Assembly: GCA_042571705.1 (NCBI GenBank)
Contig: JBHPFV010000001.1
Span: forward strand, 110,630 to 174,629
Length of the DNA: 64,000 nt
Reading direction: 5' to 3'
Source: Candidatus Omnitrophota bacterium
GTDB lineage: Bacteria; Omnitrophota; Gorgyraeia; JAFGHF01
The position numbers and the translations under genes were made by a program. Every line of letters begins with the position of its first letter. Within the stretch, counting starts at the first letter, position 1. The notes beneath the pieces were generated by a model. That model did no database searches. It saw only the letters and a list, made by a program, of their open reading frames with translations, and was not told where the DNA came from. Shown here piece by piece: positions 16,272-63,759 of this stretch.

Positions 16272-19200
16272 ATGAGAAAGATTAGCAAGAGTTTAGTCTG
16301 TTGTCTGATCTGGGTAGTCGTATTTATTATATCTGCCGCAGGCTTAGTAGCGGCCGATAGCTACTCAGATTATTTTTTAGAGGACAACGAACAGGAATTT
16401 GTCACTCCGGAGAATATTCGTGAGTTGGCCCGGATTCATTATTCTCGGGCCAGAGAGTTTTACCGCCGCGGGGAATATACCCAGGCCCGTAGAGAGTTTT
16501 CCGAGGTGCTCAAATATGACCCCAGGCATCAAGGCGCCCAGTGGTATTTGGAGGCCATCCAGCAGGAAATAGCCAAGCACGGCGTGAGCCCAATGCAGGT
16601 TGGTGAGTCAGGCCGGTTGACAAAATCAAAGAGCTTACAGCAAGCGTTAGATACAGTTGAAGGCAGCGACAATCAGGTTCGCGAACAGAAGGCTAAGCAG
16701 CAGGCGATTATCGATGCTGAGGAGAAAATGCAAGAGCAAAAGAGCCGGCGCTGGCGTAGCCAGGATCACAAAAGCAGGCTTAAATATCAGAAACAGCGTA
16801 AACAGCAACAAGCCCAGGCAGTTAAAGAAGCAATCGACGACCATCTGATCCAGGCCAAATACTTTTACCAAGAGGGCGATTTTGCTCAAGCTGAACAGGA
16901 ATGCCAACAGGCCCTGGAGCTGGATCCTAAAAATAAAGAGATTCGTAGCCTCCTGCAGAAGATTGCCCGGGCTAAAAGCCGGATCGCGGAACAAAAGCGC
17001 AAGACCAAAAGAGAAGCGGCCCTGCAGGCTCAAGCAAAATTAAGAAAGGAAAAAGCGCTTCGAACAAAGAAAGAAAGATCGGAGCAACTTAAGGCCAAAA
17101 AAGATAATCAAGAGCTAGAGCAGAAGATCAGGCTGCATTATAACCAAGGCAAGAAACATTTTAAAAATAAAGACTATATTGCCGCGCGTAAAGAATTTAA
17201 AGACATCTTGATTTTTGATCCCAAGAATAAATATGCCTTAAATGCCATAGAAAAAGTAGAAGCCACGATCCGAAAAGAAGAAAGGGAGGCTGAGCAAAAG
17301 CGGCGCCAGGAGGAAAAGCTGGCAGCCAAGCAGCGCAAAGAAACTATCGCCCAACATTTCGGCCAGGGTAAGATTTATGTTCATGAGAGAAAATATACTC
17401 AGGCCTTGGAAGAATTTAAGCAGGTTTTAATCCTTGATCCGGGTAATACCACAGCGGAAAAATTTATTATAGAATGCCGTAAACTATTGGTTAAGTCTCA
17501 GCGCCTGAAGAAAGAACACTTAAGTAAAGTCAAGCAGGCCGAGAAACAGGCCTTAAGGCAGGCCCAGCAGGAGTTAGCCAATCGGGCTGAGCAAAAGGCC
17601 CGCGAGGAAGAACGGGCCAGGCTAGAAGCCGAGCAAGAAACGAAAAAGCAACGCCAGGAAAAGATCAAGCAGCATCTGGCTCAGGGCAAAATTTACTGGC
17701 ATCAAAACCAATACGCCCAGGCTGTTGAAGAACTGAAACAGGTTCTAATTCTTGAGCCGGATCATCGCAGCGCCGAAAAACTACTTTTAAAGAGCAAGAA
17801 ACGCGTCGCCCTCGCCCAGCGCCGCGAACAAGAGCGCCTGGAAAAAGACAAGCAACGCCAGGCCCAGGCCTGGCGCCGCGAACAAGAGCGTCTGGAAGAA
17901 GAAAAACAACGCCAGGAGCGTGAGGCCGAGCGCGAAGCTGAGCAGGCTAGAATCGAGGCTGAACAAGCCAAAATCAAGGCTGAGAAAAAAGCCCAGGAAC
18001 AAAAACGCCAAAAAGAGTTGGCCCGGCAAAAACAGCTCAAAGAAACAATCAACTTTCATCTTGAAGGAGCCAAACATTACTTTAATCTACAGGAATTTGA
18101 CCAAGTTAAAGCTAAGCTTGATCAGGTGTTTAAACTCGATCCCGCAAACAAAACAGCCCGCCAATATCTATCCAGGATCGAGCAGACCATCAGGGAACAA
18201 GAGCGGGCTGAGGTTTTAGCTGAGCGCAAAGAAAAGCAACGCCAGGCCCAGGCCTGGCGCCGCGAACAAGAGCGTCTGGAAAAAGAAAAACAACGCCAGG
18301 AGCGTGAGGCCGAATTAGCCAGGATTAAGGCTGAAAAAGAAATTGAGCTTGCCAGAATCAAGGCTGAGAAAGAAGAGCGTTTGCGTCAAGAACGCTTAGA
18401 AAAAGAAAAGCAACGCCAAGAACGCGAGGCCGAACTCGCCAGAATCAAGGCTGAGCGCGAAGCTGAGCAAACCAGAATCGAGGCCGAGAAAGAGGTCCGG
18501 CTGGCTAAGATTAAAGCTGAGAAAGAAGAACGCCTGCGTCAACAGCTCCTGGCGAAAGAAAAGCAACGCCAAGAACGTCAGACCAAGCTAGCCAGGATCA
18601 AGGCCGAGAAAGAAGCTCAGGAACAAAAACGTCAAAAAGAGTTAGCCCGGCAAAAACAGCTCAAAGAAAAAATCAACTTTCATCTTGAAGGAGCCAAACA
18701 CAACTTTAATCTGCAGCAATTCGACCAGGTTAAAGCTAAGCTTGATCAGGTGTTTAAACTCGATCCCGCAAACAAAGCGGCCTACAAATATCTATCCAGG
18801 ATCGAGCAGACCATCAGGGAACAAAAGCAGGCTAAGGTTTTAGCTGAGCGTACAGAAAAACAGCGCCAGCTGCGTGAAGAGCTCCTGCGCAAAAAACGCG
18901 CAGCCGACACCCAACGCCGCGAACAAGAACGCCTGGTAGAAGAAAAGCGCCAAGCTAAACTTGAGGCTGAACTAGCCAGACAAAAAAGGCGCGAAAAAAC
19001 AATAGCGCGCTTCTTAACTCAAGGAAAAGTTTATTTTCATCAGGAAAAATATAAACAGGCGCTCAAAGAATTTAAGCAAGTTTTAATTGTCGACCAGGAT
19101 CATCCCCAGGCAGAAAAATATATCTTAAAATGCAGCAAGGCTATAGCCAGAGTCCAGCGCCGCGAACAGGAACGCCTGGCGAAAGAAAAACAGCGCCGGG

Positions 19201-22200
19201 AACAGGAGGCTGAAGCAGCCAGGATCAAGGCTGAGAAAGAAGCCCGACTAGCCAGGATCAAGGCCGATAAAGAGGCCCAGGAACAAAAACGCCAAAAAAG
19301 ACTAGCCCAACAGCGCCAGCTGGCCGAAAAGATCAATTTTCATCTCACCCAAGGGAAATATCATCTCCAGGAGCAGAAGTTCGACCTGGCTAAGCAGGAA
19401 TTTGGTAAGGTCCTTTTTCTGGACCACAACAACCAACCCGCCCAAAAATACCTGAGCCGGATGGAAAAGGCAGTTAAGCAACAAGCAGCTGCCCAAGCCC
19501 TCACTCAGCGCCGCGAACAAGAGCGCCTGGCAAAAGAAAAACAGCTCCGGGAACAGGAGGCTGAAGCAGCCAGGATCAAGGCTGAGAAAGAAGCCCGACT
19601 AGCCAAGATCAAGGCCGATAAAGAGGCCCAGGAACAAAAACGCCAGGAACAAGAAGCCCAGCAGCGCCAGCTAGCCGAAAAAATCAATATCCACCTCGAA
19701 GAAGGCAAATACTACTTTAAGGAGCAGGAATTCGCCCAGGCCCGATCAGAGTTTAAGCAAGTCCTGGCCCTGGACTTCAAAAACAAAACCGCCCGTGATT
19801 ATATCCATAAAATCGAAAAGAACTTAAAACAGGACCTGCCCCAATTTTCAGCCGCCGGAAAACTAGATACTAGCCGCGAAGTCAGGTTAGACAAGTTAAT
19901 GGCTGAGCAAATGCTGGAGTTGGAACAGACACTCCAGGGCTATCAGGATGTATTAAAAGGTGACCGCCTGGCCCAAAAGGAAGCCCGGCTCGATGACAAA
20001 GTCGCTTTGTATAGAACTAAACTGGCTAAGTTAGAGCAGCAGAAGCTGAAGATCGGGCAGATCGACCCGGATACCTATCAACAGGGCCTAACACTGCAAC
20101 AAGACGCTGAATACAAAAGTCTAGAGTTAAAGCTGACCAATAAGTTACGCCGGGCAAAGACAGAACAGCTGGAGAAGACCTTGCAGGCTGCGCTACAGCG
20201 CAAAGAGGCCGAGATAGGAGAAAAGATCAGGGCCTACGAAGCCAGTATCGATGAACTGAAAAAAGAAAAGGCCCGGCCATTCTATCAACAAGGTTTAGCC
20301 CAGCTTAAGAAGAAACAATACGCTCAAGCCAAAGAAAGCCTGGATAAAGCCCTGTCCATTTACCCTGATTATCAGCGTGCCAGAACAGCTCGCGAACAGA
20401 TTGATAATAAAGAGAAGCTGGAGATTTATTTCGTTGATGGCAAAGATCATTTTGAAAACCAGGAGTATGAGCAAGCTAGAAAGAAATTCGAAAAGATAGT
20501 TGAGCTTGATTATAATCATCAGCCGGCGCGAAAATATTTATCCCAGATTAAAGAACAACAACGGCGTTGGACAGAAAAGCAGCGCCAGGCCCAAGATCAG
20601 GCGGTAATCGAGGCCCAGAAAAAATTAGCTAAACAAAAGCAGCGCCAGCTAGCCGAAAAAATCAATATCCACCTCGAAGAAGGCAAATACTACTTTAAGG
20701 AGCAGGAATTCGCCCAGGCCCGATCAGAGTTTAAGCAAGTCCTGGCCCTGGACTTCAAAAACAAAACCGCCCGTGATTATATCCATAAAATCGAAAAGAA
20801 CTTAAAACAGGACCTGCCCCAATTTTCAGCCGCCGGAAAACTAGATACTAGCCGCGAAGTCAGGTTAGACAAGTTAATGGCTGAGCAAATGCTGGAGTTG
20901 GAACAGACACTCCAGGGCTATCAGGATGTATTAAAAGGTGACCGCCTGGCCCAAAAGGAAGCCCGGCTCGATGACAAAGTCGCTTTGTATAGAACTAAAC
21001 TGGCTAAGTTAGAGCAGCAGAAGCTGAAGATCGGGCAGATCGACCCGGATACCTATCAACAGGGCCTAACACTGCAACAAGACGCTGAATACAAAAGTCT
21101 AGAGTTAAAGCTGACCAATAAGTTACGCCGGGCAAAGACAGAACAGCTGGAGAAGACCTTGCAGGCTGCGCTACAGCGCAAAGAGGCCGAGATAGGAGAA
21201 AAGATCAGGGCCTACGAAGCCAGTATCGATGAACTGAAAAAAGAAAAGGCCCGGCCATTCTATCAACAAGGTTTAGCCCAGCTTAAGAAGAAACAATACG
21301 CTCAAGCCAAAGAAAGCCTGGATACAGCGCTGTCTATTTACCCTGACTACCAGCCGGCCAAAGACGCCCGGGAACAGATTGATACTGAGGAGAAAGTCCA
21401 GTGGCATCTTGCCCAAGGCGAATATTATCTTGGGAAACAAGAGTACGCCCGGGCGCGATTAGAGTTTGAAAAAGTTTTCAAATTAGACTACAGAAACCAA
21501 CAGGCCAAAGATTCGCTGAACAAGATTAACAGCCAAGTCCGAGAGGTAGCGACTGCCCAAGCGCAAGCGAGAAAAGAGGAAACAGCGCGCCGGCAGCAGG
21601 CAAAAATAAATTTTCATCTTAATCAGGGCAAATACTTCTTTGTTGAAGAAAAATATAGCCAGGCCAGATCAGAGCTTAAGAAGGTCCTGGCCTTAGACAG
21701 CACAAACAAACCGGCCCAAGACTATTTAAGCAAAGTTGGCAAAGCGGCCAAGGAAAACGCCCGTGCTGAAGTCATGGCCAGGGCTGAGGAAAAACAGCGC
21801 CGGCAGGAACAATTGCGTCTAGCTAAGATTAAAGCAGGGCAGCTAGCCAAAGAGAAAAGGCGCCAGGAGGAATTGGCCAAGAAACGCGAGCTGGAAAGAA
21901 GGGTTGATTTTCACCTGGCCCAGGGCCGCTATCTTCTCAGCCAGGAAAATTACGCTATGGCCAAAGAAGAATTTAATAAAATCCTGGCCTTGGATTTCGA
22001 GAACAAACAGGCCGAAAGGTATTTAAATAAAATTACCGAAATAGTTGAGAAAGAAAAGCGCAATGAACAGCTGGCCAGAGAGAAAGCAAGGCAACGCCGG
22101 GCCAAAGAAACCGCCGAGAAAAAGCGCCAGGAGGAATTGGCCCGGGAACGGGAGCTGGAAAAAAGGATCGCTATTTACATCAGAAAGGGCAGGCTCTACT

Positions 22201-24689
22201 ATGATCAACAAAAATACGAGCAGGCCCAGATGCAGTTTAATAGTGCCCTGAACTTAGACCATAAAAATAGATTAGCTAACAGCTACTTGCAGAAAATTCA
22301 GGCACAGCGAGAGCGCTTCGAGAAAGAGCAGCAACGAGCCATTGTCTTGGCCGAGGAGAGATTAAAGCAGGAACAAAAGCGAAAAGAGAAAGAAACCGCT
22401 GAGCAAGAGCGCCAGAAGCAATTGGTCAAGAAGCGCGAACTGGAAAAAAAGATTAAATTTCACCTGGTCCAGGGCCACTACTGCTTTAGCCGTCAAGACT
22501 ACGCTCTAGCCCGAAAAGAATTTAATAAAATCCTGGCCTTGGATTTCGAGAACAAACAGGCCGAAAGGTATTTAAATAAAATTACCGAAATAGTTGAGAA
22601 AGAAAAGCGCAATGAGCAGCTGGCCAGAAAGAAAGCTAAGCAACGCCGGGCCAAAGAAGCCGCCGAGCAAGAGCGCCAGAAGCAATTGGCCAAGAAACGC
22701 GAGCTGGAAAGAAGGGTTGATTTTCACCTGGCCCAGGGCCGCTATCTTCTCAGCCAGGAAAATTACGCTATGGCCAAAGAAGAATTTAATAAAATCCTGG
22801 CCTTGGATTTCGAGAACAAACAGGCCGAAAGGTATTTAAATAAAATTACCGAAATAGTTGAGAAAGAAAAGCGCAATGAACAGCTGGCCAGAGAGAAAGC
22901 AAGGCAACGCCGGGCCAAAGAAACCGCCGAGAAAAAGCGCCAGAAGCAATTGGCCAAGGAACGCGAGCTGGAAAGAAGGATTGATTTTCACCTGGCCCAG
23001 GGCCGCTACTACTTAAGCCGGCAAGACTACGCTCTGGCCAAAAAAGAATGCGATAAGGCGCTGGTTTTAGATTACCAAAATAAGCGGGCTAAAAAATACT
23101 TAAATAAAATTGCCAAGGCAATGGAAGCAGAAGCTCGGCAAGAGGTGTTAGCTAAAAAAAGTAAATTGGAAAAAAAGGTTAGCGTTCATCTTGACCAGGG
23201 CAAGGCTTACTTGCTAGAAGTAGACTATCAAAATGCGATCAGAAAGTTCAGCCAGGTTTTAGTGTTGGACCAGGACAATAAGCAGGCCCAAAAATATTTG
23301 AATAAAATTGCCAAAGCAATTGAGGCCGAAGCGCAGGTCAAAAAACAGACCCTCGCCCAGCGCCGCGAACAGGAGCGCCTGGAAAAAGAAAGACAGCGCC
23401 AAGAGAACATTAATCAGCATCTGGCTCAGGGAAAGATTTACTTTCACCAGGGCAAGCACCAAGAGGCGATTGCCGAATTTGGCAAGATTTTGTTTTTTGA
23501 TCCTGAACACGCTGATGCCGAGCAGTATATGTTACGTTCTAAACAAGTCTTTTCCAGAGATAAGCCTCAACAGCAGCTTGACCAGAAAACGGTGCAGGAA
23601 CAGCGCCAGCGCGAACAGGTGCAGACCAAGCTGCTGGAAGGGCAGATGACTAAGCTTAAACAGGTGTTAGAAGAATATGAACAGGCCCTGGAGGAGAAAC
23701 TGGCGCAAAAAGAAGTTGTCTCCTCTCCGCGATTTGCCAAATTTGAGTCCCGGGCCACTCAATTAGAAGAGGAAAAGCAGAAAATTGAGCTGGAGATCGT
23801 CCGCGAAGAAGCGGAGCTAAAAATGGCTCAGCAAGAACGAGAGAAACTTGAGACTGAATTAGGGCAGCTGCGCCAGGAACAAGAACAGTCAATAATCGAA
23901 GAATGGCAAAAATATCAAGTGAGTTTTCAGAATGAATTTGAGCGGCTGACGCAGAAAGAAGCCGAACTCGAACAAAAGATTAAAGATTACGAAGCTAAGA
24001 TAGAACAGCTGCAAATGTTTCCCTCTGTTGCCGTCGTCGCCCCGGCAGCCCGCGGCGTTGAATATGAGCCGCAATACTTAGTTGGCGACGCCGAAGCAGC
24101 GGATGGTTTAAAAGAAAAGGCCGCCCCAGCTGATAGTGTAGAGACAATTATGCTTAAACTGAAGATGGAACAATTGCATAATCAGGTCGAAGGCTTGATG
24201 CAGGAAAAAGCCAAGCCGTTTTACGAACGCGGCCGGACCCATTTAAAGAAGGAAAGATATGCCCAAGCCAGAGATGATCTTGAGCAGGCCCTAGCTATTT
24301 ATCCTAACTATACGCAGGCCCAGCGGGCGATTGATGCAATTGAACAGGTGGAGAAGATCGAGATCCATCTTTCCGAAGGTAAATTCTATTATGGCGAAAA
24401 AAACTATCAAAAAGCCAAACAGGAATTCACTAACGCCCTGGAGTTAGATTACAAACATAGAGAAGCCCGTAAATATCTGCGTCGGATAGAGAAGGCGCTG
24501 AAGGATGGAAAATCCGGTCCGCGGGAAAAGAGGAGATCCGTCTCCAGTCGGGAAACCAGGGAGCTTGAGCAAAAAAGACTCAAAGATATTAAAGACTTTT
24601 ATGAAAAAGGAAAATTTTATTTTGGTCAAGGCCTCTATCAAGAAGCCGTGGTTTGTTTTGAGAAAGTTATTGAATTAGAAAAGCAGTAG
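16272..24689 (+). CDS. giant (2805-2820 aa) exported repeat protein: about 26 isolated TPR-like units separated by E/R/K/Q-rich helical spacers
   Basis: A single uninterrupted ORF. ATG 16272 gives MRKISKSLVCCLIWVVVFIISAAGLVAA-DS (signal peptide or anchor); the ORF also opens at 16227. The recurring unit is I.FHL..GKYYF....Y..A..EF..VL.LD..N..A..YL.KI, alternating with tracts such as RREQERLEKEKQRQEREAELARIKAEKE. Confidence 0.85.
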   Translation: MRKISKSLVCCLIWVVVFIISAAGLVAADSYSDYFLEDNEQEFVTPENIRELARIHYSRAREFYRRGEYTQARREFSEVLKYDPRHQGAQWYLEAIQQEIAKHGVSPMQVGESGRLTKSKSLQQALDTVEGSDNQVREQKAKQQAIIDAEEKMQEQKSRRWRSQDHKSRLKYQKQRKQQQAQAVKEAIDDHLIQAKYFYQEGDFAQAEQECQQALELDPKNKEIRSLLQKIARAKSRIAEQKRKTKREAALQAQAKLRKEKALRTKKERSEQLKAKKDNQELEQKIRLHYNQGKKHFKNKDYIAARKEFKDILIFDPKNKYALNAIEKVEATIRKEEREAEQKRRQEEKLAAKQRKETIAQHFGQGKIYVHERKYTQALEEFKQVLILDPGNTTAEKFIIECRKLLVKSQRLKKEHLSKVKQAEKQALRQAQQELANRAEQKAREEERARLEAEQETKKQRQEKIKQHLAQGKIYWHQNQYAQAVEELKQVLILEPDHRSAEKLLLKSKKRVALAQRREQERLEKDKQRQAQAWRREQERLEEEKQRQEREAEREAEQARIEAEQAKIKAEKKAQEQKRQKELARQKQLKETINFHLEGAKHYFNLQEFDQVKAKLDQVFKLDPANKTARQYLSRIEQTIREQERAEVLAERKEKQRQAQAWRREQERLEKEKQRQEREAELARIKAEKEIELARIKAEKEERLRQERLEKEKQRQEREAELARIKAEREAEQTRIEAEKEVRLAKIKAEKEERLRQQLLAKEKQRQERQTKLARIKAEKEAQEQKRQKELARQKQLKEKINFHLEGAKHNFNLQQFDQVKAKLDQVFKLDPANKAAYKYLSRIEQTIREQKQAKVLAERTEKQRQLREELLRKKRAADTQRREQERLVEEKRQAKLEAELARQKRREKTIARFLTQGKVYFHQEKYKQALKEFKQVLIVDQDHPQAEKYILKCSKAIARVQRREQERLAKEKQRREQEAEAARIKAEKEARLARIKADKEAQEQKRQKRLAQQRQLAEKINFHLTQGKYHLQEQKFDLAKQEFGKVLFLDHNNQPAQKYLSRMEKAVKQQAAAQALTQRREQERLAKEKQLREQEAEAARIKAEKEARLAKIKADKEAQEQKRQEQEAQQRQLAEKINIHLEEGKYYFKEQEFAQARSEFKQVLALDFKNKTARDYIHKIEKNLKQDLPQFSAAGKLDTSREVRLDKLMAEQMLELEQTLQGYQDVLKGDRLAQKEARLDDKVALYRTKLAKLEQQKLKIGQIDPDTYQQGLTLQQDAEYKSLELKLTNKLRRAKTEQLEKTLQAALQRKEAEIGEKIRAYEASIDELKKEKARPFYQQGLAQLKKKQYAQAKESLDKALSIYPDYQRARTAREQIDNKEKLEIYFVDGKDHFENQEYEQARKKFEKIVELDYNHQPARKYLSQIKEQQRRWTEKQRQAQDQAVIEAQKKLAKQKQRQLAEKINIHLEEGKYYFKEQEFAQARSEFKQVLALDFKNKTARDYIHKIEKNLKQDLPQFSAAGKLDTSREVRLDKLMAEQMLELEQTLQGYQDVLKGDRLAQKEARLDDKVALYRTKLAKLEQQKLKIGQIDPDTYQQGLTLQQDAEYKSLELKLTNKLRRAKTEQLEKTLQAALQRKEAEIGEKIRAYEASIDELKKEKARPFYQQGLAQLKKKQYAQAKESLDTALSIYPDYQPAKDAREQIDTEEKVQWHLAQGEYYLGKQEYARARLEFEKVFKLDYRNQQAKDSLNKINSQVREVATAQAQARKEETARRQQAKINFHLNQGKYFFVEEKYSQARSELKKVLALDSTNKPAQDYLSKVGKAAKENARAEVMARAEEKQRRQEQLRLAKIKAGQLAKEKRRQEELAKKRELERRVDFHLAQGRYLLSQENYAMAKEEFNKILALDFENKQAERYLNKITEIVEKEKRNEQLAREKARQRRAKETAEKKRQEELARERELEKRIAIYIRKGRLYYDQQKYEQAQMQFNSALNLDHKNRLANSYLQKIQAQRERFEKEQQRAIVLAEERLKQEQKRKEKETAEQERQKQLVKKRELEKKIKFHLVQGHYCFSRQDYALARKEFNKILALDFENKQAERYLNKITEIVEKEKRNEQLARKKAKQRRAKEAAEQERQKQLAKKRELERRVDFHLAQGRYLLSQENYAMAKEEFNKILALDFENKQAERYLNKITEIVEKEKRNEQLAREKARQRRAKETAEKKRQKQLAKERELERRIDFHLAQGRYYLSRQDYALAKKECDKALVLDYQNKRAKKYLNKIAKAMEAEARQEVLAKKSKLEKKVSVHLDQGKAYLLEVDYQNAIRKFSQVLVLDQDNKQAQKYLNKIAKAIEAEAQVKKQTLAQRREQERLEKERQRQENINQHLAQGKIYFHQGKHQEAIAEFGKILFFDPEHADAEQYMLRSKQVFSRDKPQQQLDQKTVQEQRQREQVQTKLLEGQMTKLKQVLEEYEQALEEKLAQKEVVSSPRFAKFESRATQLEEEKQKIELEIVREEAELKMAQQEREKLETELGQLRQEQEQSIIEEWQKYQVSFQNEFERLTQKEAELEQKIKDYEAKIEQLQMFPSVAVVAPAARGVEYEPQYLVGDAEAADGLKEKAAPADSVETIMLKLKMEQLHNQVEGLMQEKAKPFYERGRTHLKKERYAQARDDLEQALAIYPNYTQAQRAIDAIEQVEKIEIHLSEGKFYYGEKNYQKAKQEFTNALELDYKHREARKYLRRIEKALKDGKSGPREKRRSVSSRETRELEQKRLKDIKDFYEKGKFYFGQGLYQEAVVCFEKVIELEKQ
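19660..21324 (+). repeat. two nucleotide-perfect 687-bp direct copies inside the giant gene (19660-20346 and 20638-21324; period 978 nt = 326 codons)
   Basis: Base-by-base comparison of the two stretches found no mismatch. The flanks differ at 19659/20637 and 20347/21325. Confidence 0.85.
21871..22943 (+). repeat. two perfect 260-bp direct copies (21871-22130 and 22684-22943; period 813 nt = 271 codons) plus a third ~100-bp perfect partial copy (22516-22615)
   Basis: Direct comparison. All copies are in frame and encode VDFHLAQGRYLLSQENYAMAKEEFNKILALDFENKQAERYLNKITEIVEKEKRNEQ... Confidence 0.8.
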
Positions 24690-37260: not shown

Positions 37261-37857
37261 ATGGCTATATATTGGCTGACTAAATTTTTGTTTGGCGCCT
37301 TTGCCAGAATATGCTTCCGGTTGAAGGTGGAGGGGCTGGAGAATCTGCCTAAACAGGGCGGCCTGATCCTGGCCGCTAATCACGCCAGTTCCCTAGACCC
37401 GTTTATCCTGATCGCGGCTATTCCGCGTTATGTTCGCTGGCTGATAGTGTATGAATTTTATGATGTTGCGTTTTTGCGGCCTTTATTGCGCGCGATGCGC
37501 TTTATTCGCCTGGCCAACAACTTACCTAAAACGGCCTTCCGGGCACTGCAGCAAGGCGAAATGATAGGTGCCTTTCCCGAAGGAAGACGCAGTTGGGGTG
37601 GAGCAGTCGGGCCGGGCCGGCCGGGTGTAGCGGCTTTGGCCCGCAAGACCGGCGTGGCTATTGTTCCGGTAGCTATTGTTGGTTCCTATGATGCCCTGCC
37701 GCGCACCGGCCGCGGCTTGAGATTGCGCCCAATCACGGTGCGTATCGGTGAGCCGTTGCGTTTCCCAGCCCCCGCCAAAAAATCAGAGGCCGCAGCGGCC
37801 GATCAAGAGAACATCGCCAAACTAATGCAAACCATCTCCCACCTCCTCCAACGCTAA
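37261..37857 (+). CDS. plsC: 1-acyl-sn-glycerol-3-phosphate acyltransferase
   Basis: 198 aa with the HX4D motif (NHASSLDP) and FPEGRRS. Confidence 0.8.
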   Translation: MAIYWLTKFLFGAFARICFRLKVEGLENLPKQGGLILAANHASSLDPFILIAAIPRYVRWLIVYEFYDVAFLRPLLRAMRFIRLANNLPKTAFRALQQGEMIGAFPEGRRSWGGAVGPGRPGVAALARKTGVAIVPVAIVGSYDALPRTGRGLRLRPITVRIGEPLRFPAPAKKSEAAAADQENIAKLMQTISHLLQR

Positions 37858-37901
37858 TTCCATAACCATTTTTGCGGCTTTCACTCGGCATTTTGTGCTT
37901 G

Positions 37902-38160
37902 CTTATGAGAGAGCGGAGTGTTTTTGTTTAGCGAGCATCAGCAATTTTTTGGCAACAGAGTTGTGTGCATTTACAGTGAGCAAATGGCGGAACTGACCGA
38001 GAGACACCAGATTATATTCTTACGAGGGAATTCCGCCAAATTTGCGAATTGCCTCTCCTTAAATTCACAATTTAGCAGGCCGCGAGCGAAGCGAGTGGTA
38101 AATGCCACAACTCGGCAAAAAATTGCAGCGAGCGGCAAAAATACGCAGCTCTCTCATTAG
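37902..38160 (+). ncRNA. copy A of a ~260-nt structured intergenic element (candidate novel ncRNA)
   Basis: Helices: 37905-14/38148-57; 37918-26/38136-44; 37941-51/38116-26; 37958-65/38106-13; 37967-74/38098-105; 37985-92/38031-38. All are matched in copy B with compensatory changes. The ORF 37918..38160 is not conserved in copy B. Confidence 0.55.
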
Positions 38161-38175
38161 TGCTGAACTCTCTGA

Positions 38176-38205
38176 TTGACAAGGTATCGGCTTATAGTAT
38201 ATAAT
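38176..38205 (+). promoter_or_regulatory. sigma70 consensus promoter (TTGACA-18 nt-TATAAT) for lysS
   Basis: TTGACA at 38176-38181 and TATAAT at 38200-38205. Confidence 0.6.
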
Positions 38206-38250
38206 AGGCTGATTATTAGCAGACTAATGGCTGCTTAGCCTCCGCCTTTG

Positions 38251-38300
38251 TGAAACTGTTCCCAACCCAATTATTAGCAGGAGGTAGGGGAACTGTTTCA
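38251..38300 (-). repeat. GGAAC-N-GTTCC-family hairpin, inverted orientation (arms 38252-38263 / 38288-38299)
   Basis: GAAACTGTTCCC pairs with GGGAACTGTTTC (central mismatch). The reverse complement of the loop contains GCTAATAATTGGG, like the 63416 copy. It lies in the lysS 5' leader. Confidence 0.55.
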
Positions 38301-38350
38301 AGCAGCAGCTGAAGCAGAGGCCTAAACCTAACGCCAAAACGTGTTAAACT

Positions 38351-39772
38351 ATGGATGAAGTTAGATTACAGAAACTAGAGGCGATTCGCAAAAGCGGGAC
38401 CTGTGCCTATCCGCGCCAGTTCATTAAGTCCTCTGTTATCAAGGAGTTAGTGGATAATTTCCAGGAGGCCAAGGTAGTCCAGACCGCGGGCAGGATTACG
38501 GCTCTGCGCACTCACGGTAAAAGTCTGTTCGGTGATGTCAGTGACGCTTCTGGCAAGATCCAGTTCTATATTAAGCTCAATGCCGTAGGCCAGGAGCAGT
38601 TTGAATTCTTCGTTAATAACATCGATATCGGGGATATTGTTGGGCTTAAGGGCGAGCAGTTTAAGACCCGGACCCAGGAGCCGACCATCGCGGTGGCTGA
38701 ATTTACCTTGTTGTCCAAGTCGTTGCGGCCGTTACCTGAGAAATGGCACGGCTTAAAAGACGTAGAGATTCGCTTCCGCCAGCGTTATCTTGATCTGATT
38801 GCCAATGAAAAGGCCAAAGAAATATTTATTTTGCGCAGCCGGATCGCCTCCAAGATTAGGGAATTTCTCGACCAGCGCGGTTATCTGGAGGTAGAGACAC
38901 CGATGCTGCACCAATTAGCCGGCGGGGCCACCGGGAATCCTTTTAAGACCCATCATCAGGCCTTGGACGCGAATCTATTTTTACGCATTGCCCCGGAGCT
39001 TTACTTAAAGAGGCTTTTAGTCGGCGGGTTTGATAAAATTTATGAACTCAACCGTTCCTTCCGCAACGAAGGTATTTCTACACGGCATAATCCTGAATTT
39101 ACGATGCTGGAGGTCTACACCGCTTACATAGATTGTGAGCAGGTGATGCAATTGACCGAAGAACTGTTTAAATTTTTGGCCCAAGAGTTACTGGGGAAAC
39201 TGAAGCTTGAATTTCAAGGCCGGACCATTGATTTGAGCCGCTGGGAAAGGATCTCTTTTCAGGAATTAATGGAGAAGAATTTTGATATTCATCCCCACGA
39301 AGATAAATCGACCTGGGTGGCCAAGATCCAGAAAAAAGGGATTAAGCTGGAACACCAAAAGTTGAGCCGGACCCAGATTTTAAATATTGTCGCCGACTTA
39401 ATCGAGCCGGAGGCGGCCCAGCACCCTGTGTTTGTGACTGATTTGTACGCCGAACTCTGCCCGTTAGCCAAGACCAAGAAGGATAACCCGCAATTGAGCG
39501 AAAGGTTTGAGTTGTTTATCAGCGGCTTAGAAGTAGCCAATGCCTATTCTGAGCTGAATGATCCCCAACAGCAGCGTCAGCGTTTTTCCGAACAGCTGGC
39601 TGAAAAAGATGAGCAACAAAAAATAGATGAAGATTACCTGCAGGCCTTAGAGTACGGTATGCCGCCAGCGGGAGGCCTAGGAGTGGGCATCGACCGGTTG
39701 GTGATGCTGTTTACGGATTCGGCGTCAATCCGGGAAGTGATCCTGTTTCCGCAACTAAAACCAGAAAAATGA
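38351..39772 (+). CDS. lysS: lysine--tRNA ligase (class II)
   Basis: 473 aa with an OB anticodon-binding domain plus class II motifs (…FRNEGISTRHNPEFTMLE…, …GGLGVGIDRLVMLF…). Confidence 0.9.
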   Translation: MDEVRLQKLEAIRKSGTCAYPRQFIKSSVIKELVDNFQEAKVVQTAGRITALRTHGKSLFGDVSDASGKIQFYIKLNAVGQEQFEFFVNNIDIGDIVGLKGEQFKTRTQEPTIAVAEFTLLSKSLRPLPEKWHGLKDVEIRFRQRYLDLIANEKAKEIFILRSRIASKIREFLDQRGYLEVETPMLHQLAGGATGNPFKTHHQALDANLFLRIAPELYLKRLLVGGFDKIYELNRSFRNEGISTRHNPEFTMLEVYTAYIDCEQVMQLTEELFKFLAQELLGKLKLEFQGRTIDLSRWERISFQELMEKNFDIHPHEDKSTWVAKIQKKGIKLEHQKLSRTQILNIVADLIEPEAAQHPVFVTDLYAELCPLAKTKKDNPQLSERFELFISGLEVANAYSELNDPQQQRQRFSEQLAEKDEQQKIDEDYLQALEYGMPPAGGLGVGIDRLVMLFTDSASIREVILFPQLKPEK

Positions 39773-48947: not shown

Positions 48948-48963
48948 TTAAGCAATGCCTTGA

Positions 48964-48990
48964 GAACCTGTTCCCGCAGGGAACTGGTTC
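48964..48990 (+). repeat. GGAAC-N-GTTCC-family tight hairpin after mlaE
   Basis: GAACCTGTTCCC-gca-GGGAACTGGTTC: 11 of 12 bp with a central T.T mismatch. Confidence 0.55.
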
Positions 48991-49036
48991 CAATTAAGGC
49001 TAAACGGCCGTCAACAGCTTAAACCAAAAAGGTAAC

Positions 49037-49814
49037 ATGATAGAAATAATTAACTTATGCAAGTCTTTTAATAACGGACATCAGGTTTTAAAACACTTAA
49101 ACCTGACCATCAAGCACGGCCAGACCCAGGTAATTATTGGCCGCTCCGGTTGCGGTAAGAGCGTTTTACTTAAGCATATTGTCGGGCTGTTAAAGCCGGA
49201 TTCCGGACAGGTATTTGTTAATGATCAAGATGTGGTCAGGCTTGATGAAAAACAGCTGAATAAAATCCGTCTGAAGATAGGGCTGCTTTTCCAGGGGGCG
49301 GCGCTATTTGATTCGATGACCGTGGGCGAAAACGTAGGTTTTGTCTTGCGCGAGTATACTGATACAGATGAGATAACTATCGTCAAAAGGGTTAAAGAGA
49401 GCTTGGAACTGGTTGGTTTGCGTGGCATTGAACAGCTGATGCCTTCAGAATTAAGCGGCGGAATGAAGAAAAGGGTCGGTCTGGCCCGGGCGATCTGCGC
49501 GCGGCCAGTAATAAACTGTTGTACGATTGGGTCTTTACTCTCTTTTGTATGATGAGCCGACTACCGGAATCGACCCGATTATGGCCGACGCGATTAATAC
49601 CTTGATTCGTGAATTACACGATAAGCTTCAAGTGACTTCCATCGCCGTAACTCACGATATGGTCTCAGCCTATAAGATTGCCGATACAATTTCCATGCTT
49701 TACGACGGCCGGATTATAGAAAGCGGCTCGGCCCAACAAATAAAAGAGAGTAAAGACCCAATCGTACAACAGTTTATTACTGGCGCCGCTCACGGCCCAA
49801 TCACTGATAGATAA
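49037..49814 (+). pseudogene. mlaF: Mla-type ABC ATPase MlaF, frame broken by a 28-nt templated insertion
   Basis: ORF 49037..49552 carries Walker A GRSGCGKS and the signature [15 protein letters not shown]. ORF 49527..49814 carries Walker B [9 protein letters not shown] onward, in the +1 frame. Deleting 49509-49536 gives the continuous sequence ...[19 protein letters not shown]... Confidence 0.75.
49504..49546. repeat. 43-bp perfect inverted repeat with 49742-49784 inside mlaF
   Basis: 49504-49546 is the exact reverse complement of 49742-49784 (base-by-base check). The right copy encodes the native ...KESKDPIVQQFITG... Confidence 0.85.
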
Positions 49815-63373: not shown

Positions 63374-63415
63374 TCCTTTTTGGTTTAAGCTGATGACGAC
63401 CTTTTAGCTTTAAGT

Positions 63416-63462
63416 GGGAACAGTTCCTGTGATTGGGCTAATAATTTGGAGGAACAGTTCCT
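63416..63462 (+). repeat. GGAAC-N-GTTCC-family hairpin (arms 63417-63427 / 63451-63461, loop containing GCTAATAATTTGGA)
   Basis: GGAACAGTTCC occurs twice, pairing 5+5 bp with a central A.A mismatch. It lies ~40 nt after the mgtE stop and directly before element copy B. Confidence 0.6.
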
Positions 63463-63484
63463 CACGGCGTATCCAGCAACAGTA

Positions 63485-63748
63485 ATATTATCTTTGCGGA
63501 GTGTTTTGTTAGCGAGCATCAGCAATTTTTTGGCAAGAGAGTTGTGAGTATTTATGGCGAGTGAGCGCCGAAACTGACCGAGAACCACCAGATTATTTGC
63601 TTACGAGGGAATTTCGGCAGGCGAAGGAGCCACCCTTCCCGCCAAACAAAATTTAATTTAGCACGGGTCACGAGTGAAGCGAGTGATAAATACCACAACT
63701 CGGCAAAAAATTGCAGCGAGCAAACAAAATACGTAGCAAAGATAATAT
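63485..63748 (+). ncRNA. copy B of the ~260-nt structured intergenic element (candidate novel ncRNA)
   Basis: Helices: 63485-97/63736-48; 63501-08/63725-32; 63522-32/63704-14; 63539-46/63694-701; 63548-55/63686-93; 63567-73/63612-18. A conserved 38-nt loop (CTGACCGAGA..CACCAGATTAT...CTTACGAGGGAA) is shared with copy A. Confidence 0.55.
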
Positions 63749-63759
63749 AGGGAGGCATC

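What the first reader, a model, noticed from the sequence alone, without database searches (positions are those of the whole stretch)
37902..38160. Two copies of a ~260-nt intergenic element with at least six covarying helices: candidate novel structured RNA
Seen: 37902-38160 and 63485-63748 (same strand) align along their length and fold identically.
- (1) The closing stem has a completely different sequence in each copy: ATGAGAGAGC/GCTCTCTCAT versus ATATTATCTTTGC/GCAAAGATAATAT.
- (2) GTGTTTTTG/CAAAAATAC versus GTGTTTTG/CAAAATAC shows a paired 1-bp length change, and a G.U is retained at the same position. That G.U would be a C.A mismatch on the other strand, so the + strand is the likely RNA.
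- (3) GCAATTTTTTG/CAAAAAATTGC is invariant.
- (4) GAGTTGTG/CACAACTC is invariant.
- (5) GCATTTAC/GTAAATGC versus GTATTTAT/ATAAATAC shows two compensatory pairs.
- (6) GGCGGAA/TTCCGCC versus GCCGAAA/TTTCGGC shows two compensatory pairs. This helix closes a 38-nt loop that is 34/38 identical (CTGACCGAGA..CACCAGATTAT...CTTACGAGGGAA).
- An internal loop carries AGCGAGC on both strands in both copies.
- A further hairpin is present at the same place with unrelated sequence.

The ORF in copy A (37918-38160) has an in-frame TGA and an indel in copy B, so the element is non-coding.

Inference: this is a functional RNA (6S-like rod, regulatory RNA or RNA of a mobile/selfish element) rather than a protein gene. 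I do not recognise it as RNase P, tmRNA, SRP RNA, a retron msr/msd (no RT nearby) or a TnpB/IscB omega-RNA (no nuclease gene nearby).
Basis: seen in the sequence. Interest (0 to 1): 0.8.

Follow-up and report, generated by a model that had tools for sequence, protein, structure and literature searches.

The report
Nested hairpin repeat family in Omnitrophota
The two ~260-base sequences really do fold into the same long rod. They are copies of a multi-copy, mosaic hairpin repeat that has been inserted into normally tiny gene spacers of one Omnitrophota lineage, so they are most likely a small mobile element, not a dedicated RNA gene.

Summary
Copy A (37905-38157) and copy B (63485-63748) align and fold as rods (z -8.4 and -8.0). 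Across 11 copies from about 6 Omnitrophota genomes, 47 consensus pairs are 95.5% paired and 13 show compensatory changes. No Rfam family, homologous protein, phage or plasmid matches.

The context argues against a single RNA gene:
- One MAG holds at least 9 copies.
- Copies are mosaic, with alternative apical modules, side hairpins, nested inserts and truncated copies.
- Syntenic relatives (LysS 77-80%, MgtE 81% identical) have 38-56 nt and 16 nt spacers where the window has 493 and 387 nt.
- Orthologous spacers in other MAGs carry the element inverted, with other modules, or not at all.
- Orientation relative to genes is not fixed.
- No conserved promoter or terminator was found.
- No reverse transcriptase, transposase or nuclease gene lies within about 10 kb.

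One strand always folds better. It carries symmetric same-strand (G)CGAG(C) motifs (71 against 7 CTCG) that form tandem G.A pairs at each module junction.

Best reading (about 0.6): a new CGAG-tagged, nested palindromic repeat resembling REP/BIME, REPIN and MITE elements, spread at the DNA level by an unknown enzyme. RNA effects would be secondary. A genuine RNA function is not excluded.

The parts
37905..38157 (+). Copy A of the rod element (253 nt, type-1 apex plus side hairpin)
   Evidence: Sequence; RNA fold z -8.4; DNA fold z -7.0; nhmmer family hits
63485..63748 (+). Copy B of the rod element (264 nt)
   Evidence: Sequence; fold z -8.0; 81% mean column identity to copy A; identical in a second assembly of the same species (L034)
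37905..37914 (+). Copy A closing stem, 5' half (ATGAGAGAGC). It pairs with 38148-38157 and its sequence is copy-specific.
   Evidence: Other copies have CTTTGC/GCAAAG here.
38148..38157 (+). Copy A closing stem, 3' half (GCTCTCTCAT). Its last bases run into sequence resembling the ancestral plsC 3' end.
   Evidence: comparison with the L028, L030 and L032 empty sites. The overlap with the ancestral flank is an inference.
37915..37936 (+). Outer module, 5' arm: CGGAG G.A site, GTGTTTTTG helix and AGCGAGC junction motif (37930-37936)
   Evidence: A stand-alone version of this outer hairpin exists at L026 1510-1550.
37941..37974 (+). Middle module, 5' arm: GCAATTTTTTG, GAGTTGTG and GCATTTAC helices
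   Evidence: Helices 4 and 5 of alignment A2. Helix 5 has 10 pairs with changes on both sides.
37986..38037 (+). Type-1 apical module: helix GGCGGAA/TTCCGCC enclosing the conserved CTGACCGAGA..CACCAGATTAT..CTTACGAGGGAA. The CGAG at 37998 and the CGAG at 38023 can pair with tandem G.A.
   Evidence: Present in 7 copies with 4 covarying versions of the helix. Replaced by an unrelated type-2 apex in L003, L004, L007, L009, L010, L012 and L018. A promoter-like TTGGCG-N17-TATAAT lies on the - strand at 38039-38011.
38051..38080 (+). Copy-specific side hairpin (GCCTCTCC...GCAGGC)
   Evidence: Fold. The sequence is unrelated in copy B (63620-63643) and L016, and the hairpin is absent in L001, L008, L011 and L015.
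38083..38147 (+). 3' arms of the middle and outer modules: CGAG x2 with GCGAAGC (38086-38092), GTAAATGC, CACAACTC, CAAAAAATTGC, AGCGAGC (38127-38133), CAAAAATAC, CGCAG
63567..63618 (+). Copy B type-1 apical module (GCCGAAA/TTTCGGC helix)
63620..63643 (+). Copy B side hairpin (GGCGAAGG...CCCGCC), unrelated in sequence to that of copy A
37858..38175 (+). Extra DNA between the plsC stop and the conserved lysS promoter, containing copy A. Relatives have no such block.
   Evidence: The plsC-lysS spacer is 493 nt here against 56, 53 and 38 nt in L028/L029, L030 and L032/L033.
38176..38205 (+). Context: conserved lysS promoter TTGACA-N18-TATAAT just downstream of copy A. In relatives its -35 box overlaps the plsC stop codon.
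63374..63749 (+). Extra DNA between the mgtE stop and the ribosome-binding site of the glutamine amidotransferase gene, containing a GGAAC module and copy B
   Evidence: The spacer is 387 nt here against 16 nt in L035 (CP070837.1).

Best explanation
Copies A and B belong to a previously undescribed family of dispersed, modular palindromic repeats in Omnitrophota genomes. It is the same general kind of thing as REP/BIME, REPIN, ERIC or MITE elements.

Anatomy:
- Each rod is a stack of hairpin modules: a variable closing stem, an outer hairpin, a middle hairpin, and one of two unrelated apical modules. Optional side hairpins and nested inserts may be added.
- At every junction the same strand carries (G)CGAG(C) on both arms. 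In a single strand these pair as tandem sheared G.A.

How it most likely works:
- The element spreads and is remodelled at the DNA level, as insertions into intergenic spacers and into the loops or junctions of existing modules.
- This probably goes through a folded single-stranded intermediate recognised by an enzyme encoded elsewhere in the genome.
- Copy B, and probably copy A, is co-transcribed with its neighbours and would then form a very stable RNA rod. Any effect on mRNA processing, stability or translation is a secondary consequence.

Shown: family membership, mosaicism, conserved structure with covariation, strand asymmetry, lineage-specific presence.
Inferred: DNA-level mobility through single strands, the role of CGAG, and the existence of a trans-acting enzyme.
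For: 1. Multi-copy and dispersed. Exact-word scans found 15 true copies in 4 GTDB MAGs, 9 of them in one MAG, plus 2 further metagenome variants.
2. Mosaic. Copies show two unrelated apices, side hairpins at different sites, truncated copies (L011, L013, L017), a partial tandem duplication (L001), and inserts of about 56 to 130 nt inside otherwise collinear copies. One of these is a roughly 113-nt insert flanked by CGAGC..CGAGC. Others are flanked by AATG..AATG and CGA..CGA.
3. A stand-alone 37-nt version of the outer hairpin exists (L026 1510-1550).
4. Empty sites. Syntenic relatives have spacers of 38-56 nt (plsC-lysS) and 16 nt (mgtE-amidotransferase) where the window has 493 and 387 nt.
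5. Orthologous spacers differ between MAGs. L003/L008 have the same site with different modules. L004/L009 lie between the same two genes but the element is inverted. L013 against L016 is present against absent.
6. Orientation is not tied to transcription. The element is on the sense strand in the window, but on the C-rich strand, on which most neighbouring genes are antisense to the element, in 15 of 17 other loci.
7. No promoter or terminator is shared by the copies.
8. The structure is maintained: 95.5% of cells paired, 13 compensated pairs, 0 of 500 shuffles. Strand-specific features are inherited by all copies:
   - the + strand is 2-18 kcal/mol better in 11 of 11 copies;
   - CGAG 71 against CTCG 7, and GCGAGC 30 against GCTCGC 0;
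   - GCGAAGC 9 against 1.
9. The window variant CGGAG/CGCAG (CGTAG in copy B) keeps G.A, N-N', A.G. This points to selection on the fold, not on a simple duplication.
10. REP dimers nested inside longer palindromes are documented in other phyla (PMC3733652).
Against: - No transposase, RAYT or other candidate enzyme was found. Only about 120 kb of element-bearing genomes could be inspected, and no protein recurs next to the copies.
- The rods themselves show no target-site duplication and no conserved terminal inverted repeat distinct from the body.
- Relatives used as 'empty sites' are about 20% diverged. Deletion in them cannot be formally excluded, though their spacers of 16-56 nt leave no remnant.
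- At L003/L008, and possibly L010/L016, the element sits at the same site in different species. This also fits long-term retention or a function.
- Element arms are about as conserved as neighbouring coding DNA (about 80% against 75% nt identity at L003/L008, by eye). That implies constraint or concerted evolution.
- Copies were collected with a 20/21-mer from the 3' arm. Invariance of that helix is therefore by construction, and the census is biased.
- ssDNA and RNA intermediates cannot be told apart from sequence.
Confidence: 0.6

Rival explanations
1. A genuine structured non-coding RNA family. It would be either a cis-acting mRNA element (processing, stability or translation control) or a trans-acting protein-binding scaffold with several tandem-G.A sites. 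On this reading it has multiplied in these genomes, and the + strand RNA is the functional form.
For: - Strong covariation.
- Consistent strand asymmetry, with conserved unpaired nucleotides in the type-1 apex.
- G.U exceeds A.C in helices, 16 against 6 cells.
- Both window copies lie on the sense strand of operons. Copy B ends 2 nt before the ribosome-binding site of the next gene.
- Retention at an orthologous site in two species (L003/L008).
Against: - Outside the window the + strand is usually on the strand antisense to most neighbouring genes.
- The element is inverted at an orthologous spacer (L004/L009).
- It is absent from the same spacers in relatives.
- Copies are mosaic or truncated and carry nested inserts.
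- There is no shared promoter or terminator.
- Apical modules are interchangeable.
Confidence: 0.17
2. A non-autonomous element that moves through, or is guided by, its own RNA. On this reading the rod is the RNA component of a selfish system, such as a retroelement-like template or a guide or bridge RNA for a recombinase encoded elsewhere.
For: - Strand-specific fold.
- Copy-specific closing stems that pair with sequence next to the insertion site.
- Promoter-like motifs inside the element: TTGGCA-N17-TACAGT on the + strand, and TTGGCR-N17-nATAAT on the - strand of the type-1 apex (with my reading of the copies).
Against: - No reverse transcriptase, IS110, TnpB or IscB gene lies within about 10 kb of either copy, and no protein recurs next to any of the 17 loci.
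- No Rfam hit to HEARO, omega-RNA or retron-type models.
- The variable parts pair with each other, not with a common target.
Confidence: 0.1
3. A local product of hairpin-templated mutagenesis or duplication without true transposition. On this reading palindromes grew in place by template switching, and the copies were homogenised by gene conversion.
For: - The same genome carries a clear templated inverted insertion inside mlaF, which is absent from a 99.5% identical assembly.
- Closing stems extend into copy-specific flank sequence.
Against: - The same roughly 170-nt core, with the same mismatches and bulges, occurs at many unlinked loci in several genomes. The sequence has therefore been copied between sites.
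- Asymmetric G.A sites are conserved and have not been corrected to perfect palindromes.
Confidence: 0.05
4. A small protein gene (the 80-aa ORF 37918-38160).
For: An open frame exists in copy A.
Against: No homologue among 5.8 billion proteins. Copy B has stop codons in all three frames, and the open stretches differ between copies.
Confidence: 0.01

Closest known systems
Tagged REP / BIME repeats (GTAG- and CGTC-tagged palindromic repeats; Di Nocera et al. 2013, PMC3733652)
   Same: - Intergenic and multi-copy.
- Hairpin units carry a conserved unpaired tetranucleotide at the foot.
- Units combine into larger foldable structures.
- Some REP dimers sit inside longer palindromes.
- Presence varies between related genomes.
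- Reported in the PVC group.
- Proposed to act as RNA hairpins when transcribed.
   Different: - The tag here is CGAG, not GTAG or CGTC.
- It occurs on the same strand on both arms of every level, so it pairs as tandem G.A. REPs carry the tag at one end of a 20-40 bp unit.
- The rods are 170-260 nt.
- No RAYT was found.
REPIN-RAYT systems (Bertels and Rainey 2011, PMC3116915)
   Same: - Non-autonomous hairpin-forming doublets.
- Dispersed in intergenic DNA.
- Structure preserved across copies.
- Thought to move as single-stranded DNA using a single-copy Y1 transposase encoded elsewhere (abstracts).
   Different: - REPINs are two inverted REPs of about 100 nt in total, with tags on opposite strands.
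- Here the architecture is nested and modular with interchangeable apices.
- RAYT association could not be tested.
ERIC/IRU and bacterial MITEs (reviews PMC3184786 and PMC2229807, seen as abstracts; details from general knowledge)
   Same: - Imperfect palindromes of 100-300 nt in transcribed intergenic regions.
- Found in both orientations.
- Size variants arise by internal insertions.
- RNA hairpins can alter mRNA fate.
- Non-coding.
   Different: - No sequence similarity.
- The rods have no detectable target-site duplication.
- There is no terminal inverted repeat distinct from the body.
- No cognate IS element is known.
IS200/IS605-type single-strand transposons and their hairpin-ended miniature derivatives (established knowledge, not tested here)
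   Same: - Strand-specific folded DNA ends.
- A short specific target or cleavage motif next to hairpins.
- No target-site duplication.
- Insertion next to a tetra- or pentanucleotide. This would mimic the CGAG(C)..CGAG(C) flanks seen at the nested insert.
   Different: - No TnpA or TnpB gene was seen.
- The orientation bias is not uniform: the window is opposite to the other genomes.
- The whole element is a single rod, not two distinct subterminal hairpins.
6S RNA (Rfam RF00013)
   Same: A long, rod-like fold of about 180-260 nt.
   Different: - No match to the 6S model even at E<=10.
- A true 6S is detected elsewhere in a related MAG.
- 6S is single-copy and syntenic, whereas this element is multi-copy and lineage-specific.

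Membership tests
REP / tagged REP (GTAG or CGTC) | Short (20-40 bp) palindromic unit with an unpaired GTAG or CGTC tag at one end | tested here: not met
   Units are longer and nested. The tag is CGAG and lies on the same strand on both arms. Definition taken from PMC3733652.
REP / REPIN | High copy number, confined to intergenic DNA | tested here: inconclusive
   At least 9 loci in one MAG and 2 in this 64-kb window, all intergenic. Whole-genome counts were not obtainable.
REPIN-RAYT | A cognate Y1 (RAYT) transposase gene in the same genome | not testable with these tools
   Only loci around the copies could be read. No repeated or transposase-like ORF lies next to them.
MITE | Terminal inverted repeats shared by all copies | tested here: inconclusive
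   The whole element is an inverted repeat. The outermost stems differ between copies.
MITE | Target-site duplication of fixed length flanking each copy | tested here: not met
   No direct repeat flanks copy A or copy B. Only the internal nested inserts show 3-5 nt direct repeats.
MITE | Related autonomous IS element with a transposase | not testable with these tools
   None in the window or the loci.
Mobile DNA in general | Presence or absence, or changed orientation, at orthologous sites | tested here: met
   Empty sites in relatives. The element is inverted between L004 and L009, and present in L013 but absent in L016.
Structured non-coding RNA gene | Secondary structure supported by covariation | tested here: met
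   13 of 47 pairs with changes on both sides, 95.5% of cells paired, 0 of 500 shuffles, slid controls 35-48%.
Structured non-coding RNA gene | Own promoter and terminator, or a fixed position and orientation relative to a regulated gene | tested here: not met
   No shared promoter or terminator. Orientation and neighbouring genes vary.
Structured non-coding RNA gene | Expression as a discrete RNA | not testable with these tools
   No transcriptome data were available.
6S RNA | Match to the RF00013 covariance model; single-copy | tested here: not met
   No hit at gathering score or at E<=10. A true 6S is found at L004 88-224.
Retron msr/msd | Adjacent reverse transcriptase gene | tested here: not met
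   Neighbouring genes are housekeeping genes kept in synteny: SecA, Lnt, PlsC, LysS, LolCD; BacA, MgtE, GATase.
TnpB/IscB omega-RNA (HEARO) | Adjacent TnpB or IscB gene; match to Rfam models | tested here: not met
   No such gene and no Rfam hit.

The most novel reading that the evidence does not exclude
The rods could represent an unrecognised class of strand-specific hairpin mobile elements. On this reading each module lands in the CGAG-tagged loop or junction of an earlier module, so rods grow by self-nesting. Mobilisation would be by an as yet unidentified enzyme (HUH-type or other) that reads tandem G.A / GCGAAGC-type DNA or RNA structure. Alternatively, the multi-G.A rod could be a protein-binding RNA scaffold that Omnitrophota have domesticated.
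Probability: 0.25. Interest if true: 0.7.

Novelty: new variant of a known kind. Interest (0 to 1): 0.45.

Why it matters
Omnitrophota are small-celled, uncultivated bacteria. The complete genome of the close relative used here is only 1.55 Mb, and gene spacers in relatives are 16-56 nt. Finding 250-390 nt structured insertions in such spacers shows that these genomes are being colonised by a repeat family that nobody seems to have described.

The family has an unusual and easily testable signature: same-strand CGAG tags that form tandem G.A pairs at every level of a nested hairpin. It could:
- lead to a new mobilising enzyme or a new tag class alongside the GTAG and CGTC REPs;
- supply strain-typing markers for Omnitrophota MAGs;
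- warn annotators and RNA-motif hunters that strong covariation in a rod can come from a palindromic mobile repeat and not from an RNA gene.

If transcribed, copy B sits 2 nt from a ribosome-binding site and may alter operon expression.

Tried and rejected
- Rfam at gathering score on the whole window, and at E<=10 on 37800-38400, gave only chance-level hits. Rfam on 17 related loci found nothing on the elements.
- A protein search with the 80-aa ORF found no homologue.
- The first metagenome scan used a pattern with a wrong spacer length (4 N instead of 3) and found nothing. The second scan worked.
- Viral contig scans and blastn against plasmids and phages found nothing.
- Look-ups of the window's own PlsC, LysS and an upstream protein, meant to extend the source contig, were not on record. 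No further copies from this genome could be collected.
- A search for an 'empty' outer hairpin by fuzzy pattern failed. One was then found by eye in L026.
- An all-against-all comparison of ORFs in the loci, looking for a recurring transposase, found only orthologous housekeeping genes.
- Considered and rejected: hammerhead-like core in CTGACCGAG (no CUGANGA...GAAA arrangement and no Rfam hit), 6S, retron, omega-RNA, integron attC (no cassette array), protein-coding.
- Literature searches for Omnitrophota repeats or RNA motifs returned nothing specific.
Full report
**1. Observation**

The two stretches exist as described. Copy A is 37905-38157 and copy B is 63485-63748, both on the + strand.
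- They align along their whole length, with 81% mean column identity including flanks.
- Each folds into one long rod. RNA minimum free energies are -97.8 and -95.7 kcal/mol, with z -8.4 and -8.0 against dinucleotide shuffles.
- With DNA parameters copy A also folds as a rod (z -7.0).
- The 80-aa ORF in copy A has no homologue. It is interrupted in every frame in copy B.

**2. No known family**

- Rfam 15 gives nothing at gathering score on the window except an unrelated c-di-GMP-I riboswitch.
- It gives only chance-level hits at E<=10 on the element.
- Seventeen related loci also give nothing on the element. A bona fide 6S RNA is detected in one of them (L004 88-224).
- There are no matches in viral contigs, plasmids or phages.

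**3. More copies**

- An exact 21-mer from the 3' arm found 16 loci among GTDB species representatives. Fifteen are true copies in four MAGs, labelled Omnitrophota or 'Planctomycetia'. Nine of them lie in one MAG, CAZEQA01.
- A 20-mer scan of JGI metagenomes added two new variants, L017 and L018. It also returned strain copies of CAZEQA01 loci and four chance hits.
- nhmmer with copy A finds no further copy in the window. It finds none in about 70 kb of syntenic DNA from relatives.

**4. Anatomy**

The copies share a core:
- 5' arm: CTTTGCGAGGTGTTT(A)TTGCGAAGCGAGC.TCAGCAATTTTTTGGCA..GACTTTTG.GCACTTACAGCGAGCGAA
- 3' arm: GAGCGAGCTGTTAAGTGC.CAAAAGTCGGCAAAAAATTGCAGCGAGCGRAGCAAWAACACCGAGCAAAG

Inside this core there are two unrelated apices.
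It occurs in copies A and B and in L001, L008, L011, L015 and L016.
- Type 2 (GGCTACAGCGATAGTYGCAAAAT) occurs in L003, L004, L007, L009, L010, L012 and L018.

Further variation between copies:
- Side hairpins of unrelated sequence occur in copy A, copy B and L016, at slightly different positions. They are absent elsewhere.
- Several copies carry extra inserts:
  - a roughly 113-nt hairpin inside the 3' AGCGAGC, flanked by CGAGC..CGAGC (L005, L006, L008, L013, L014);
  - a 56-nt insert flanked by CGA..CGA (L012);
  - a roughly 75-nt insert flanked by AATG..AATG (L006).
- L011, L013 and L017 are truncated or recombined copies. L001 has a partial tandem duplication of the 3' end.
- A stand-alone 37-nt hairpin, TTTGTGAGGTGTTTTGC-GAA-GCAAAACACCTCACAAA, corresponds to the outer module alone (L026).
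- In CAZEQA01 and JAHIIS01 the rods adjoin other rod-like modules in the opposite orientation.

The element is therefore modular and mosaic.

**5. Structure is under constraint**

RNAalifold on 11 copies gives 47 consensus pairs. Counting on that structure gives:
- 95.5% of cells paired;
- 13 pairs and 25 cells with changes on both sides;
- 0 of 500 shuffles reaching these values;
- slid controls of only 35-48% paired.

Helix 5 carries most of the covariation: GAGTTGTG/CACAACTC against GACTTTTG/CAAAAGTC against GACCTGCG/..GCGGGTC. The GCAATTTTTTG helix is invariant, but one arm of it was the search word.

**6. Strand asymmetry**

- The aligned + strand folds 2-18 kcal/mol better than its complement in 11 of 11 copies, and it is purine-rich.
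- The cause is a motif. CGAG occurs 71 times against 7 CTCG in 2.9 kb of elements. The window background has 157 against 85 in 63 kb. GCGAGC occurs 30 times against 0 GCTCGC.
- The CGAG motifs sit in symmetric pairs at each level of the rod. In a single strand 5'-CGAG-3'/5'-CGAG-3' forms C-G, G.A, A.G, G-C. It is established knowledge that tandem sheared G.A pairs are stable in the context pyrimidine-GA-purine, in both DNA and RNA.
- The window copies have CGGAG/CGCAG (CGTAG in copy B) at the outermost site. This keeps G.A, N-N', A.G, so the fold and not just a duplication is preserved.
- L018 and L026 have fully Watson-Crick versions of the same site, in opposite polarity.
- GCGAAGC is enriched 9 to 1 on the + strand. 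From general knowledge, this sequence forms an unusually stable DNA mini-hairpin.
- G.U pairs do not discriminate the strands well. Within the consensus helices there are 16 G.U cells against 6 A.C cells.

**7. Genomic behaviour**

(a) Empty sites.
- LysS homologues 77-80% identical lie in the same gene order: SecA-Lnt-PlsC-LysS-LolC-LolD-IlvE-McsA-McsB-ClpC-...-MlaE-MlaF.
- Their plsC-lysS spacer is 56, 53 or 38 nt. In them the plsC stop codon overlaps the -35 box of a perfect lysS promoter.
- The window has 493 nt, and the same promoter follows copy A at 38176-38205.
- The MgtE homologue (81% identical) in the complete 1.55-Mb genome CP070837.1 is followed after 16 nt by the same amidotransferase gene. 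The window has 387 nt.
- A second assembly of the same species is 99.5% identical overall and has an identical copy B spacer. The insertion is therefore not an assembly artefact.

(b) Orthologous spacers in other MAGs.
- L003 and L008 carry the element at the same site but with different apices and inserts.
- L004 and L009 carry it between the same two genes but in opposite orientation.
- L013 has a copy downstream of a helicase-nuclease gene. L016 (80% identical protein) has none there.

(c) Orientation.
- Both window copies lie on the sense, G-rich strand.
- In 15 of 17 other loci the + strand of the element lies on the C-rich strand, on which most neighbouring genes are antisense to the element.
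- Replication and transcription cannot be separated with these short loci.

(d) Signals and neighbours.
- No shared promoter or terminator was found.
- No reverse transcriptase, transposase or nuclease gene lies within about 10 kb of either window copy.
- No protein recurs next to the copies in the other loci.

**8. Interpretation**

A single-function RNA gene should have a fixed context, fixed orientation and expression signals. This element has none of these. It behaves like a dispersed palindromic repeat that is gained, lost, inverted and remodelled.

The conserved, strand-specific fold is shared by all copies regardless of their orientation to genes. It is best explained as a property the element needs for its own propagation, as a folded single strand recognised by a trans-acting enzyme. 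Selection at each locus is a less likely explanation.

The symmetric CGAG motifs may be structural (tandem G.A), or insertion junctions, or both. One clearly polymorphic nested insert is flanked by CGAGC on both sides. This fits insertion next to a specific motif, as in IS200/IS605-type single-strand transposition, but it is only an analogy.

REP dimers nested in longer palindromes, and tetranucleotide-tagged REP superfamilies (GTAG, CGTC), are documented (PMC3733652). REPINs are thought to be mobilised by RAYTs (PMC3116915). The present family differs in its tag, in having the tag on the same strand on both arms, in length and in its nested modularity. I therefore do not file it as a member of any of these.

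When transcribed, the + strand RNA would form a very stable rod. Copy B certainly lies inside an operon and ends 2 nt before the ribosome-binding site GGGAGG. Effects on mRNA are plausible but untested.

**9. The copy-specific closing stems**

- CTTTGC/GCAAAG is the family consensus. Copy B adds ATATTAT/ATAATAT, copy A has ATGAGAGAGC/GCTCTCTCAT, and L016 has GAGGT/ACCTC plus an A/T-rich extension.
- In both window copies the 3' half of the stem abuts, and may overlap, sequence resembling the ancestral flank:
  - CATT..GCTGAA..ATTGACA for copy A;
  - GATA.AT.GGAGG for copy B.
- This hints that the 5' half was made complementary to the local flank, or that a further small hairpin module forms the outermost layer. 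I could not decide between these. It remains unexplained.

**10. Limits**

- About six genomes were sampled, and many copies come from one MAG.
- Copies were ascertained with a 3'-arm word.
- Relatives used for empty sites are about 20% diverged.
- There is no transcriptome, and the complete genomes could not be scanned for enzymes.

**11. Verdict**

The feature is real. Its structure is real and selected. The strand asymmetry is real. The 'novel structured RNA gene' reading is downgraded to 'novel modular palindromic repeat, probably mobile DNA, possibly with RNA-level side effects'.
- Interest: 0.45.
- Probability of the most novel reading that is not excluded: 0.25.

Noticed in passing
window 49508-49545 (inside mlaF, 49037-49814): A roughly 36-38 nt insertion is the reverse complement of the gene's own downstream segment (about 49743-49780). 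It replaces about 8 nt and splits the MlaF-like ABC ATPase into two ORFs by frameshift. A 99.5% identical second assembly (L037, GCA_042569555.1) and the relatives L028 and L032 have an intact gene of 247-249 aa. It is either a strain-level template-switch mutation or an assembly error.
   Followed up: yes
window 63375-63461 (+), 38252-38299 (-), 48957-49032 (-): A second small repeat family. It consists of paired palindromic 11-mers GGAACnGTTCC flanking GCTAATAATTKGG, with an extra shared 40 nt at two of the sites. One copy lies about 20 nt upstream of rod copy B. One lies in the lengthened lysS 5' leader downstream of rod copy A, in the opposite orientation. One lies alone between mlaE and mlaF. 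It could be an operator-like site or another small mobile module.
   Followed up: partly
window 38039-38011 (- strand), and the equivalent place in L008, L011, L015, L016: The conserved type-1 apex reads as a sigma-70-like promoter on the minus strand (TTGGCR-N17-nATAAT, 10 of 12 matches in copy A). The spacing is 17 in all seven type-1 copies I read. It might explain part of the apex conservation, as a mobile outward promoter, or it might be coincidental.
   Followed up: partly
window 38176-38205: A perfect TTGACA-N18-TATAAT promoter for lysS. In relatives the same promoter (N17) overlaps the plsC stop codon (TGA inside TTGACA), which shows how compact these genomes normally are.
   Followed up: yes
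window 13005-13092 (-): A c-di-GMP-I riboswitch (Rfam RF01051, 48.2 bits, E 2.4e-06) lies on the minus strand, in a region where almost all long ORFs are on the plus strand.
   Followed up: no
window 16227-24689 (+): A 2820-aa ORF is built of many diverged direct repeats (units of 264, 351, 624-660 and 978 nt, one pair 100% identical over 300 nt). AT skew is very high here (0.36-0.38).
   Followed up: no
L004 88-224: A true 6S RNA (RF00013, 67.7 bits) in the Omnitrophota MAG JAHIIS01, about 1.4 kb from one of the rod copies.
   Followed up: no
L004, L006, L008, L012, L014 (100-250 nt on the 5' side of the rod): Another conserved rod-like module: GCTCGGGGTCCTGTCTCGGATTCGCCCTCGGTGCTCGCAAAAGTACAGCA ... 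TGCTGTCTTTTGCTGCGCGCCGAGGGCTAGAATCCGAGCCACCCCTCGCC. It carries variable apical inserts. Its CGAG-type motifs lie on the opposite strand, so it is a related element in inverted orientation next to the rods, arranged like a BIME.
   Followed up: partly
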